The notes under the pieces are model-generated. The model made no database searches, was not told where the DNA came from, and worked only from the letters and a program-made list of their open reading frames with translations. A stretch of 64,000 bases of DNA from the human T2T-CHM13v2.0 reference genome, Homo sapiens, in the NCBI RefSeq assembly GCF_009914755.1, contig NC_060944.1. One strand, given 5' to 3'. Positions within the stretch are counted from its first letter, which is position 1; every line of letters begins with the position of its first letter. This document shows, in pieces, positions 46,953 through 49,874 of the stretch. Made by a program: the position numbers and the translations under genes.

Positions 46953-48521
46953 TGTGTCCGGAATTGGTAGGTTCTTGGTCTCACTGACTTCAAGAATGAA
47001 GCTGCGGACCCTCGCGGTGAGTGTTACAGCTCTTAAGGTGGCGCGTCGGGAGTCTGTCCCTTCTGATGTTCAGATGGGTTCAGAGTTTCTTCCTTCTGGT
47101 GGGTTCGTGGTCTCGCTGGCTCAGGAGTGAAGCTGCAGACCTTCGCGGTTAGTGTTACAGCTCTTAAAGCAGCGTGTCTGGAGTTGTTCGTTCCTCCTGG
47201 TGGGCTTGTGGTCTCGCTGGGCTCAGGAGTGAAGCTGCAGATCTTCGCGATAAATGTTACAGCTCATAAAGGCAGCATGGACCCAAAGAGTGAGCACTAG
47301 CAAGATTTATTGCAAAGAGCAAAAGAGCAAAGCTTCCACAGTGTGGAAGGGGACCCGAGTGGGTTGCCAATGCTGGCTCGAGTTGCCAATGCTGGCTCGG
47401 GCAGCCTGCTTTTATTCTCTTATCCGGCTCCACCCACATCCTGCTGATTGGTAGAGCCAAGCGGCCTGTTTTGTCAGGGTGCTGATTGGTGCGTTTACAA
47501 TCCCTGAGCTAGATACAAAGGTTCTCCACGTCCCCATCAGATTAGTTAGATACAGAGTTTCGACACACAGGTTCTCCAAGGCCCCACCAGAGCAGCTAGA
47601 TACAGAGTGTCGATTGGTGCACTCACAAACCTTGAGCTAAACACCGGGTGCTGATTGGTGTGTTTACAAACCTTGAGCTAGATACAGAGTGCCGATTGGT
47701 GTATTTACAATCCCTGAGCTAGACATAAAGGTTCTCCAAGGCCCCACCAGAGCAGCTAGATACAGAGTGTCGATTGGTGCACTCACAAACCTTGAGCTAG
47801 ACACAGGGTGCTGATTGGTGTGTTTACAAACCCCAAGCTAGATATAAAGACTCTCCATGTCCTCACCAGACTCAGGAGCCCAGCTGGCTTCACCTAGTGG
47901 ATCCCGCACTGGGGCTGCAGGTGGAGCTGCCTGCCAGTCCCGTGCCATGCGCTCGCATTCCTCAGCCCTTGGGTGGTTGATGGGACTGGGCACCGTGGAG
48001 CAGGGGGTGGTGCTCGTCGGGGAGGCTCGGACCGCACAGGAGCCCATGGAGTGGGTGGGAGGCTCAGGCATGGCAGGCTGCAAGTCCCAAGCCCTTCCCC
48101 GAGGGAAGGCAGCTAAGGCCCGGCGAGAAATCGAGCACAGCGCCGGTGGGCTGGCACTACTGGGGAACCCAGTACACCCTCCACAGCCACTGGCCCAGGT
48201 GCTAAGTCCCTCATTGCCTGGGGCCAGCAGGGCTGGCCGGCTGCTCCGAGTGCGGGGCCCGCCAAGCCCACGCCCACCCGGAACTCCAGCTGGCCCGCAA
48301 GCGCCGCACGCAGGCCTGGTTCCCGCTCGCGCCTCTCCCTCCACACCTCCCTGCAAGCTGAGGGAGCGGGCTCCAGCCTTGGCCAGCCCAGAAAGTGGCT
48401 CCCACAGTGCAGTCGGGGGGCTGAAGGGCTCCTCAAATGCCGCTAAAGTGGGAGCCCAGGCAGGGGAGGTGCCAAGAGCAAGCAAGGGCTCTGAGGACTG
48501 CCAGCATGCTGTCACCTCTCA
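46953..48521 (-). mobile_element. LTR12C (HERV9 LTR), full length, ~1.57 kb
   Basis: On the minus strand it begins TGAGAGGTGACAGC and ends TCCGGACACA; CCAAT/GATA repeats; AATAAA box at 47411-47416. Confidence 0.95.
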
Positions 48522-48647
48522 ATCCCCCCTCTAAACAGGACACCCCAACTGCTGTTGGGAATTTGGCTGATGACCGCTCTAGCTACTTCCTGCTGCATAG
48601 GGGCGAAGGAGGGGCCCTGCACTTGTGGTGTCCTTCTGAGGGAACTC
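48522..48647 (-). mobile_element. HERV9 internal 3' end with polypurine tract
   Basis: Minus strand ...cagcagttggggtgtcctgtttAGAGGGGGGAT abuts the LTR start, marking 46953-48521 as a 3' LTR. Confidence 0.85.
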
Positions 48648-49874
48648 AGCTTGCAGGGAGGTGTGGAGGGAGAGGCGCGAGCGGGAACCAGGGCTGCGTG
48701 CGGAGCTTGCGGGCCAGCTGGAGTTCCGCGTGGGCGTGGGCTTGGCGGGCCCCGCACTCGGAGCAGCCCACCAGCCCTGCTGGCCCCGGGCAATGAGGGA
48801 CTTAGCACCCGGGCCAGTGGATGCGGAGGGTGTACTGGGTCCCCCAGCAGTGCCGGCCCACCGGCGCTGTGCTCGATTTCTCCCCAGGCCGTAGCTGCCC
48901 TCCCGCGGCGCAGGGCTCCAGACCTGCAGCCCGCCATGCCTGAGCCTCCCACCCACTCCATGGGCTCCTGTGTGGCCCGAGCCTCCCCAACAAGCACCAC
49001 CCCCTACTCCATGGCGCCCAGTTCCATCGACCACCCAAGGGCTGAGGAATGCAAGCACATGGCGCGGGACCGGCAGGCAGCTCCACCTGCAGCCCCAGTG
49101 CGGGATCCACTAGGTGAAGCCAGCTGGGCTCCTGAGTCTGGTGGGGATGCGGAGAGTCTTTATATCTAGCTCAGGGATTGTAAATACACCAATCACCACC
49201 CTGTGTTTAGCTCAAGGTTTGTGAATGCACCAATCGACACCCTGTATCTAGCTGCTCTGGTGGGGCCTTGGAGAACCTGTGTATCCAAACTCTGTATCTA
49301 ACTAATCTGATGGGGACGTGGAGAACCTTTGTATCTAGCTCAAGGATTGTAAACGCACCAATCAGCACCCTGACAAAACAGGGCACTCGGCTCTACCAAT
49401 CAGCAGGATGTGGGTGGGGCCAGATAAAAGAATAAAAGCAGGCTGCCCGAACCACCATTGGCAACCTGTTTAGGTCTTCTTCCACACTGTGGAAGGTCTG
49501 TTCTTTTGCTCTTTGCAATAAATCTTGCTAGTGGTCACTCTTTGGGTCCGCGCTGCCTTAAGAGCTGTAACACTCACCGCAAAGGTCTGCAGCTTCACTC
49601 CTGAGCCCAGCGAGACCACGAGCCCACCGGGAGGAACGAACAACTCCAGACGCGCTACCATAAGAGCTGTAACACTAACCGCGAAGGTCTGCAGCTTCAC
49701 TCCTGAGCCAGCGAGACCACGAACCCACCAGAAGGAAGAAACTCCGAACCCATCCGAACATCAGAAGGGACAGACTCCAGACGCGCCACCTTAAAAGCTG
49801 TAACACTCACCGCGAGAGTCCACGGCTTCATTCTTGAAGTCAGTGAGACCAAGAACCCACCAATTCTGGACACA
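48645..49874 (+). mobile_element. LTR12C lacking the first ~160 bp of U3
   Basis: Reverse-complement match to 46953-48362; ends TCTGGACACA; AATAAA box 49431-49436; poly(A) signal 49517-49522. Confidence 0.95.

What the first reader, a model, noticed from the sequence alone, without database searches (positions are those of the whole stretch)
46953..49874. Inverted LTR12C pair integrated through two U5 ends with a single 4-bp TSD
Seen: both termini of the 2.9-kb insert are the LTR 3' (U5) end (TGTGTCC... left, ...GGACACA right). Each is flush against TCCT (46949-46952, 49875-49878), and removing the insert restores one Alu. Inside are a full minus-strand LTR12C, ~125 bp of HERV9 3' internal sequence with its polypurine tract, and a plus-strand LTR12C missing ~160 bp of U3. 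The outer ~140 bp of the arms differ at 9 positions by my count, 5 of them CpG transitions. The arms share variants (gatgggttc, gcggttagtg) relative to the consensus as I recall it. Established: proviruses have direct-repeat LTRs with one U3 and one U5 terminus, and ERV1-class elements typically leave 4-bp TSDs. Inference: integrase acted on an aberrant two-U5-end substrate, either a fold-back/template-switched cDNA or two cDNA molecules joined later. Two independent insertions are less likely.
Basis: partly seen in the sequence, partly recalled or inferred. Interest (0 to 1): 0.82.

Follow-up and report, generated by a model that had tools for sequence, protein, structure and literature searches.

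The report
Retroviral insert with two U5 ends
A 2.9-kb endogenous-retrovirus insert in an Alu carries two copies of the same LTR facing away from each other, so both outer ends are the "U5" end, yet it has one normal 4-bp target duplication; it looks like a fossil of integrase inserting a mis-made viral DNA.

Summary
Window 46953-49874 holds four things in order:
- a complete minus-strand LTR (1569 bp);
- 126 bp of retroviral 3' internal sequence with the polypurine tract;
- a 3-nt junction overlap;
- a plus-strand LTR lacking its first 159 bp.

Both outer termini are the family's U5 end (...GGACACA). Both abut TCCT. Removing the insert and one TCCT restores a continuous Alu.

A 4-bp duplication is the family norm: 37 of 49 other genomic copies have a perfect one, and none has 5 or 6 bp. 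All 49 have the usual U3-start/U5-end topology.

The arms are sisters in a 51-copy tree (95/87). They share transversions found in none of the 49 other copies. One of these occurs only in these two arms genome-wide, against 654 sites with the common state.

Best reading: one concerted integrase event on a DNA with two U5 ends, made before integration. A template switch during reverse transcription is the more likely origin, and host end-joining of two partial cDNAs the main rival. The sequence cannot separate them.

Not tested: primate orthologues, long reads, a genome-wide scan, and Dfam naming. No function is evident. It is a new structural variant of a known kind of insertion.

The parts
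46732..46952 (-). Left part of the host Alu that was the integration target; it ends in the left TCCT
   Evidence: joined flanks align to other Alus in the window from query 33 (= window 46732) across the junction
46949..46952 (.). Left copy of the 4-bp target-site duplication, TCCT
46953..48521 (-). Complete LTR (U3-R-U5, 1569 bp) of the LTR12C-like family. Its U5 end is at 46953 and its U3 start at 48521
   Evidence: solo-LTR matches end at query 622 = window 48521
47606..47765 (-). 160-bp U3 tandem-repeat block present in the left arm but absent from the right arm; this long/short difference is common across the family
   Evidence: absent in the right arm and in 29 of 49 other copies, present in 20 of 49; the long and short forms are scattered over the tree
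47381..47399 (-). Extra copy of a ~20-bp tandem duplication found only in the left arm
   Evidence: gapped in the right arm and in all 49 other copies
48522..48647 (-). 126 bp of retroviral 3' internal sequence: the tail of the env region, with the polypurine tract at about 48522-48536 next to the LTR start
   Evidence: 23 of 29 proviral 3' ends align up to 48647 and none goes beyond; in relative L053 the DNA just upstream encodes TLV_coat (PF00429, E 3e-26 and 4e-9)
48645..48647 (.). Junction overlap CTC, shared by the end of the internal piece and the start of the right arm (3-nt microhomology)
   Evidence: 15 proviral matches end at query 748 (= 48647), and 37 of 39 LTR matches start at query 746 (= 48645). 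One search agrees
48645..49874 (+). 5'-truncated LTR (1230 bp, lacking U3 positions 1-159). Its U5 end is at 49874
49875..49878 (.). Right copy of the 4-bp target-site duplication, TCCT
49875..49943 (-). Right part of the same host Alu

Best explanation
This is one integrase-mediated insertion of an aberrant viral DNA whose two ends were both U5 ends.

Proposed sequence of events:
1. A minus-strand DNA had been copied through U5, R, U3 and the polypurine tract, and 126 nt into the env tail. This is the left arm as read on the window's + strand.
2. Its 3' end paired through 3 nt (CTC/GAG) with position 160 of U3 on a minus-strand DNA. That DNA was either the same strand folded back or the second minus strand in the particle.
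3. The 3' end was extended to that template's 5' end. If two minus strands primed on each other, the product is directly a duplex with a genuine U5 terminus at each end.
4. Integrase processed both CA ends and joined them to target strands 4 bp apart inside an Alu. Gap repair then gave the TCCT duplication.

What is shown: the anatomy, the TSD, the family norm, the common origin of the arms and the 3-nt overlap.
What is inferred: that reverse transcriptase made the join, and how the ends were finished.

My odds: about 0.8 that a two-U5 substrate was inserted in a single integrase event, and about 0.5 that the substrate arose during reverse transcription.
For: - Both outer termini are the exact family U5 end, flush with TCCT.
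- The family TSD is 4 bp: 37 of 49 other copies have a perfect 4-bp TSD and 0 of 49 have 5 or 6 bp. All 49 have U3 start at one end and U5 end at the other.
- The empty site is restored without a gap against 25 of 26 Alu hits.
- The arms are sisters at 95/87 support in a 51-row tree.
- They share 5 rare variants, which is the 99th percentile of 1275 pairs. Three are transversions absent from all 49 others.
- The position-1445 variant 23-mer occurs twice in the genome, both times in these arms, against 654 sites with the common state.
- The position-1372 variant 16-mer has 20 genomic hits. The 18 outside the arms lie in 16 loci that are at most 86% identical to the arm or not similar at all.
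- Private changes are balanced between the arms, 38 against 49 (binomial p = 0.28), as expected for equal age.
- The left arm plus internal piece has exactly the layout of a prematurely ended minus-strand DNA, and the junction has a 3-nt overlap.
- In vitro, integrases insert pairs of U5-mimic DNA ends concertedly with the correct duplication length (PMC3790719, abstract and passages read).
Against: - By raw distance the arms are not each other's nearest copies. Non-CpG K2P is 0.055 between them against a median of 0.0455 for other pairs, and the other arm ranks 36th and 17th of 50. The comparison set is biased towards the least-diverged copies, since only 40 of about 4100 candidates were scored per arm.
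- Equally supported sister pairs occur between copies on different chromosomes (L007/L039, L034/L050). The tree alone therefore shows a shared source lineage, not one molecule.
- The arms differ by a 160-bp repeat block, which needs an extra slippage or deletion event. A test of whether the right arm's unit is a chimera of the left arm's two units was uninformative.
- A 3-nt overlap fits host microhomology-mediated joining as well as a reverse-transcriptase switch.
- A simple fold-back gives a hairpin with only one duplex end, so further steps must be assumed.
- The right arm has more private transversions than the left, 14 against 5; this is unexplained.
- No orthologue or read data were seen.
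Confidence: 0.5

Rival explanations
1. The integrase event was the same, but the two-U5 substrate was made by host end-joining. Two partial linear cDNAs from the same source would have been broken, one 126 bp upstream of its 3' LTR and the other at U3 position 160. They were then joined head-to-head through 3 nt of microhomology. The join happened either before integration or after two separate molecules each gave one U5 end to a concerted reaction.
For: The 3-nt overlap at 48645-48647 is typical of microhomology-mediated joining. Arms copied independently would explain the 160-bp repeat difference without a later event. In vitro concerted integration routinely uses two separate U5 donor molecules (PMC3790719 passages). 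Host polymerases and repair enzymes do act on unintegrated viral ends (PMC5041404 passages).
Against: It needs two viral DNAs from the same rare source, since the variants are unique genome-wide. Both would have to be broken, and then either brought together in one intasome or joined while still able to integrate. Nothing in the sequence requires two molecules.
Confidence: 0.3
2. A normal provirus or solo LTR inserted here, and a later replication or repair error (fold-back inverted duplication) replaced part of it with an inverted copy of the 3' LTR.
For: Fold-back inverted duplications with short microhomology and an asymmetric spacer are a known class of rearrangement (from my own knowledge). 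The junction has 3 nt of overlap and a 282-nt spacer.
Against: An inverted copy templated on the left arm would run on into an inverted copy of the left flank. Instead the right arm stops exactly at the family's processed CA terminus. It then continues with TCCT and the correct, uninverted remainder of the Alu. That needs a second breakpoint placed to the base at the LTR end with no microhomology.
Confidence: 0.07
3. Two independent insertions of opposite orientation hit the same 4-bp target, and a large internal deletion followed.
For: It can formally give the same final sequence.
Against: It requires two hits on the identical 4 bp, both from a source whose diagnostic variant is seen nowhere else in the genome (2 of 2 variant sites against 654 common-state sites). 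It also needs a deletion that removes the middle TCCT.
Confidence: 0.02
4. The structure is an assembly or sequencing artefact, such as a fold-back chimeric read.
For: None specific. Inverted repeats can be troublesome to assemble.
Against: Artefactual fold-backs give identical arms. Here the arms differ at 95 of 1225 aligned sites, by a 160-bp block, by a ~20-bp duplication and by a 1-bp indel. They also have an asymmetric 282-nt spacer and a clean TSD.
Confidence: 0.02

Closest known systems
Canonical LTR12C / ERV9 (HERV9) solo LTR or provirus insertion
   Same: Same LTR family, at 92-93% identity to the best genomic copies. Same terminal sequences and the same 4-bp TSD. Same polypurine tract and env-tail sequence next to the 3' LTR.
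   Different: A canonical element has direct LTRs, or one LTR, with U3 start at one end and U5 end at the other; all 49 copies examined do. Here the two LTRs are inverted, both outer ends are U5, and there is no 5' LTR, primer-binding site or gag-pol.
In vitro concerted integration of two U5-end donor DNAs by retroviral integrases
   Same: Two U5 ends are inserted across the target with the virus-specific duplication length (PMC3790719, abstract and passages).
   Different: That is a test-tube reaction with synthetic ends. This would be a natural germline product, with the two U5 ends linked in one 2.9-kb DNA.
Aberrant HIV-1 / ASLV integrations in which one end is joined by integrase and the other by host enzymes (PMC5041404)
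   Same: Viral DNA is truncated, short homology sits at the join, and viral sequence can be appended in either orientation (passages read).
   Different: Those proviruses have one abnormal host junction with large duplications, deletions or inversions of host DNA. Here both host junctions are normal and the TSD is the exact family length.
LINE-1 5' inversion by twin priming
   Same: An inverted, truncated internal arrangement made during reverse transcription and enclosed by a single TSD. The mechanism is recalled from my own knowledge; '5'-inverted' L1 copies are mentioned in the abstract of PMC2912911, seen in the listing.
   Different: That is target-primed reverse transcription by a non-LTR element, with no integrase, no LTRs and a longer variable TSD.
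DIRS retrotransposons with inverse LTRs
   Same: These are retroelements whose terminal repeats are inverted (PMC3950715 abstract, seen in the listing).
   Different: In DIRS elements inverted repeats are the normal design, and they use a tyrosine recombinase. Here the element belongs to an ordinary integrase-using, direct-LTR family, and the inversion is a one-off.
Self-priming (snap-back) of minus-strand cDNA by reverse transcriptase
   Same: The 3' end of a minus-strand DNA primes on a minus-strand template and makes plus-sense DNA. This is recalled from my own knowledge; one search was a search on this topic.
   Different: The described cases are short hairpins at strong-stop DNA, treated as dead-end products. 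Here the copy is 1.2 kb long and the product was integrated.

Membership tests
LTR12C-like LTR of a class I (gamma-like) ERV (ERV9/HERV9) | High identity over the full length to a multi-copy genomic LTR family with the same termini | tested here: met
   about 4100 candidates per arm, 40 scored, best non-self 93%; 40 of 49 other copies begin TGAGAGG and 35 of 49 end GGACACA exactly. The left arm has both ends and the right arm has the U5 end.
LTR12C-like LTR of a class I (gamma-like) ERV (ERV9/HERV9) | Polypurine tract and a gamma-type env tail lie upstream of the 3' LTR | tested here: met
   the 126-bp piece matches 29 proviral 3' ends at 83-94% identity; in L053 the upstream ORFs hit TLV_coat PF00429 (E 3e-26 and 4e-9).
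LTR12C-like LTR of a class I (gamma-like) ERV (ERV9/HERV9) | Assignment to subfamily LTR12C by a repeat library (Dfam/RepeatMasker) | not testable with these tools
No repeat library is on hand.
Integrase-mediated retroviral insertion | Target-site duplication of the family-specific length | tested here: met
   TCCT on both sides. 37 of 49 family copies have a perfect 4-bp TSD and 0 of 49 have 5 or 6 bp.
Integrase-mediated retroviral insertion | The insert ends exactly at the processed ...CA termini of the LTR | tested here: met
   both ends are ...GGACACA, read outward.
Canonical provirus or solo LTR | One U3 terminus and one U5 terminus, with LTRs in direct orientation | tested here: not met
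   the LTRs are inverted and both termini are U5.
Host-repaired aberrant integration (one integrase end only) | One host junction is abnormal, with a large duplication, deletion or inversion of host DNA | tested here: not met
   the host Alu is restored exactly apart from the 4-bp duplication.
Post-integration fold-back inverted duplication | The inverted copy extends past the element into inverted flanking DNA, or ends at an arbitrary point | tested here: not met
   the right arm ends at the exact LTR terminus, and the flank is uninverted Alu.

The most novel reading that the evidence does not exclude
This is a germline fossil of a retroviral replication error not catalogued in genomes. Two minus-strand DNAs, or one folded back, primed on each other to give a U5/U5 inverted dimer, and the ERV's integrase inserted it concertedly. 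If so, integrase accepts a symmetric U5/U5 substrate in vivo. 'U5-out LTR pairs within one TSD' would then be a searchable structural class across ERV families and host genomes.
Probability: 0.5. Interest if true: 0.6.

Novelty: new variant of a known kind. Interest (0 to 1): 0.5.

Why it matters
It would be natural, in vivo evidence of two things. First, a retroviral integrase can complete a normal concerted insertion with two U5 ends. Second, inverted-dimer cDNAs are made and can survive to integration in the germ line. It also defines a simple signature, LTRs pointing outward with both ends U5 and one family-length TSD, that can be scanned for in any genome to measure how often reverse transcription goes wrong in this way.

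There is a possible side effect. The two promoters point outward from the centre. A read-through transcript would fold into a long imperfect hairpin: 1154 inter-arm pairs, a longest perfect helix of 84 bp, and an MFE of -2637 kcal/mol against -1112 and -1142 for two shuffles. Inverted LTRs are among the reported sources of host double-stranded or Z-RNA (PMC12711578 passages). No gene is annotated in the window, and I have no evidence of any function here.

Tried and rejected
1. Raw-distance test of sisterhood. The arms are not mutual nearest neighbours. I judged this uninformative because the family tree is star-like and the sample is biased to the least-diverged copies.
2. 24-mer around left-arm position 1225. 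The pattern was badly chosen, because it included a right-arm-private base. It hit only the right arm and one chr6 copy (L081), whose matches to the left arm are 82-90% identical. I dropped it.
3. Chimera test of the right arm's single 160-bp unit against the left arm's two units. One search used a wrong register. One search gave a mixed pattern (B, B, A, A, B, B, B), which is uninformative.
4. Search for other head-to-head pairs, using the central 1.2 kb as query. All 39 other loci scored, out of 2983 candidates, were ordinary copies in which both halves map to one interval. This is not exhaustive.
5. A full genome-wide scan for U5-out pairs was not feasible.
6. Literature searches found no report of an ERV insertion with two U5 ends and one TSD. 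The library lacks most subscription papers and old scans, so this does not show that none is in print.
8. The DIRS-type, host-repaired aberrant integration and post-integration fold-back readings were each rejected on a tested feature (see the membership tests).
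Full report
**1. What is there**

The sequence at 46953-49874 begins TGTGTCCGG... and ends ...CTGGACACA. TCCT lies immediately outside both ends, at 46949-46952 and 49875-49878.

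Self-comparison shows an inverted repeat in four collinear blocks: 641 nt at 92%, 317 nt at 93%, 308 nt at 94% and 119 nt at 85%. The inner arm ends are 282 nt apart. BLAST of the insert against the whole window found no other copy of this repeat outside the insert.

**2. Identity of the parts**

I searched the window's own genome with each arm. Each search gave about 4100 first-look candidates, of which 40 were scored, and the best non-self matches were 92-93% identical. I extracted 49 other copies: 29 and 20.
- 40 of 49 begin TGAGAGG and 35 of 49 end GGACACA exactly. The rest differ by 1-3 bases.
- The left arm (46953-48521, minus strand, 1569 bp) has both family termini, so it is a complete LTR.
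- The right arm (48645-49874, plus strand, 1230 bp) starts at left-arm position 160, so it lacks 159 bp of U3.
- The stretch between them, read on the minus strand, ends in a purine run directly before the LTR start. It matches the DNA just upstream of the 3' LTR in 29 other proviral loci at 83-94% identity.
- In one of those loci (L053) the ORFs further upstream hit the gamma-type envelope family TLV_coat (PF00429, E 3e-26 and 4e-9).

So the middle piece is the env tail plus the polypurine tract of a class I ERV. PMC8767690 (passages read) describes LTR12C as carrying a 5' extension that is almost exclusive to hominoids and that expanded about 20 million years ago.

**3. The junction**

Internal homology runs up to window 48647 in 23 of 29 proviral alignments, and none goes beyond it; the other 6 stop at 48641-48642. 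An independent search with the central 1.2 kb gave the same limits:
- 15 proviral matches end at query 748, which is window 48647, and 2 end at query 743.
- 37 of 39 LTR matches to the right arm begin at query 746, which is window 48645. One begins at 747 and one at 749.

The two homologies therefore overlap by 3 nt, CTC at 48645-48647. There is no filler DNA.

**4. Target site**

The flanks are two parts of one Alu. I joined them keeping a single TCCT. They then align without a gap across the junction to 25 of 26 Alu hits elsewhere in the window.

Among the 49 other family copies, 37 have a perfect 4-bp TSD and none has a 5- or 6-bp one. Most of the remaining 12 match at 3 of 4 bases, and one (L036) is a proviral 3' LTR. 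All 49 have U3 start on one side and U5 end on the other. The duplication here is thus exactly what this family's integrase makes, but the topology is not the family's.

**5. Are the arms one origin?**

Over 1225 aligned sites the arms differ at 95 (92.2% identity).
- 74 of the 95 are transitions, and 33 are CpG-type.
- The arms also differ by a 160-bp U3 repeat block, a ~20-bp tandem duplication found only in the left arm, and a 1-bp indel.

A maximum-likelihood tree (51 rows, 1226 columns, repeat-block columns removed) places the arms as sisters with 95/87 support and a shared branch of 0.0061.

Two cautions apply to that tree.
- Equally supported sister pairs exist between copies on different chromosomes (L007/L039 and L034/L050). 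A cherry therefore shows a shared source lineage, not one molecule.
- By raw non-CpG distance the arms (0.055) are further apart than the median pair (0.0455). Each ranks only 36th or 17th of 50 for the other. The comparison set was picked as the best-scoring copies, so it is biased to the least-diverged ones.

The stronger evidence comes from shared derived bases. The arms share 5 variants that are rare (at most 10%) in the other 49 copies. That is the 99th percentile of all 1275 pairs, where the median is 1.

Genome-wide counts support this.
- The 23-mer with the position-1445 variant occurs twice, both times in these arms. The same 23-mer with the common base occurs 654 times.
- The 16-mer with the position-1372 variant has 20 hits. 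The 18 outside the arms lie in 16 loci. Of these, 13 are LTR12-like sequences at most 86% identical to the arm, and 3 show no similarity.

The arms have 5 and 14 private transversions over about 1225 sites. From that, my own arithmetic gives an expected number of identical parallel transversions of about 0.03, against 3 observed.

Gene conversion between the arms could in principle spread a mutation from one to the other. However, position 1445 is flanked by arm differences 5 nt away on each side, and position 1225 has one 3 nt away, so common descent is simpler.

Private changes are balanced, 38 on the left arm and 49 on the right (p = 0.28), as expected if both arms began to diverge at the same time.

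The 160-bp block does not mark a lineage. The long and short forms need 16 changes on the tree, the same as shuffled labels (about 16.5). Five of the eight two-row clades with at least 87% bootstrap support pair a long copy with a short one.

**6. Mechanism**

On the window's + strand, the left arm plus the internal piece reads rcU5-rcR-rcU3-rcPPT-rc(env tail). That is the layout of a minus-strand DNA that stopped 126 nt past the polypurine tract. What follows is plus-sense U3(160...)-R-U5, which can only be copied from a minus-strand template.

The simplest route to a duplex with two U5 ends is as follows. The 3' end of this minus strand pairs through CTC/GAG with the 3' end of a second minus strand that had reached U3 position 160. 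Each strand is then extended on the other. A fold-back on the same strand is the intramolecular version, but it yields a hairpin and needs further priming. Integrase then processes two CA ends and inserts them 4 bp apart.

That integrases can do this with two U5 ends is established in vitro (PMC3790719). Everything about how the substrate formed is inference.

Host microhomology-mediated joining of two broken cDNAs gives the same sequence and is the main rival.

The aberrant integrations described for HIV and ASLV (PMC5041404) share the truncation, the short homology and the copying of either viral strand. They leave an abnormal host junction, which is not the case here.

**7. Rejected readings**

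- A post-integration fold-back duplication should run into inverted flank DNA. Instead the right arm stops at the exact LTR terminus, and an uninverted Alu follows.
- Two independent hits on the same 4 bp, from a source whose variant exists nowhere else, plus a deletion, is very unlikely.
- An assembly fold-back artefact would have identical arms, and these differ at 7.8% of sites and by three indels.

**8. Age and function**

The non-CpG distance of 0.055 between the arms suggests something of the order of 10-30 million years, depending on the rate assumed. This is my rough arithmetic. It is compatible with the roughly 20-million-year expansion of LTR12C reported in PMC8767690.

No gene is annotated in the window. 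The two U3 promoters sit back to back and point outward. A transcript that ran through the whole insert would fold into a long imperfect hairpin: 1154 inter-arm pairs, a longest perfect helix of 84 bp, and an MFE of -2637 kcal/mol against -1112 and -1142 for two shuffles. Inverted LTRs have been reported as sources of host Z-RNA (PMC12711578). I have no evidence that this locus does anything.

**9. Novelty**

Nine literature searches found no description of an ERV insertion with two U5 ends in one TSD. The library is incomplete, so this is weak evidence of novelty. One search of the genome for other head-to-head pairs found none among 39 other loci scored out of 2983 candidates.

**Verdict**

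This is a new structural variant of an ordinary ERV insertion. It is of moderate interest as a natural record of an aberrant integration substrate.

Noticed in passing
window 47606-47765 and loci L002-L050: LTR12C-like copies come in a long and a short form that differ by one 160-bp U3 repeat block; all 29 copies are short and all 20 are long. The forms are scattered over the tree (16 changes, as many as for shuffled labels). Five of eight well-supported two-row clades pair a long copy with a short one, which suggests frequent gain or loss of the block.
   Followed up: partly
window 47381-47399: A ~20-bp tandem duplication (gagttgccaatgctggctcg-like) is found only in the left arm. It is absent from the right arm and from all 49 other copies, so it presumably arose after insertion.
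   Followed up: no
window 48645-49874 versus 46953-48362: The right arm carries 14 private transversions against 5 in the left arm, although total private changes are balanced at 49 and 38. This is unexplained. It may be noise, or it may reflect lower-fidelity synthesis of that arm.
   Followed up: no
L097 (G000:C8:145846294-145848175): An LTR12-like element about 70-79% identical to the arm carries the variant 16-mer three times at 103-bp spacing, that is, in each of three U5 repeat units.
   Followed up: no
L009 (G000:C3:185905566-185909798), locus 3622-4233: A second, more distant LTR12-like fragment (78% identity) lies on the opposite strand about 900 bp downstream of a full LTR12C-like copy. 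Its U5 end faces inward, so the pair is convergent, unlike the pair studied here. It is probably an independent insertion.
   Followed up: no
G000:C1:186427287 and 186427647: Two matches to the common-state 23-mer lie 360 bp apart on the same strand. This hints at an LTR copy with an expanded U5 repeat, or at tandem fragments.
   Followed up: no
window 48636-48649: The junction reads CTGAG-GGAA-CTCAG, a 5-bp inverted repeat around a 4-nt loop. It arises because this copy's env tail has TCAG where most relatives have TCTG. I could not tell whether it played any part in the strand switch.
   Followed up: partly
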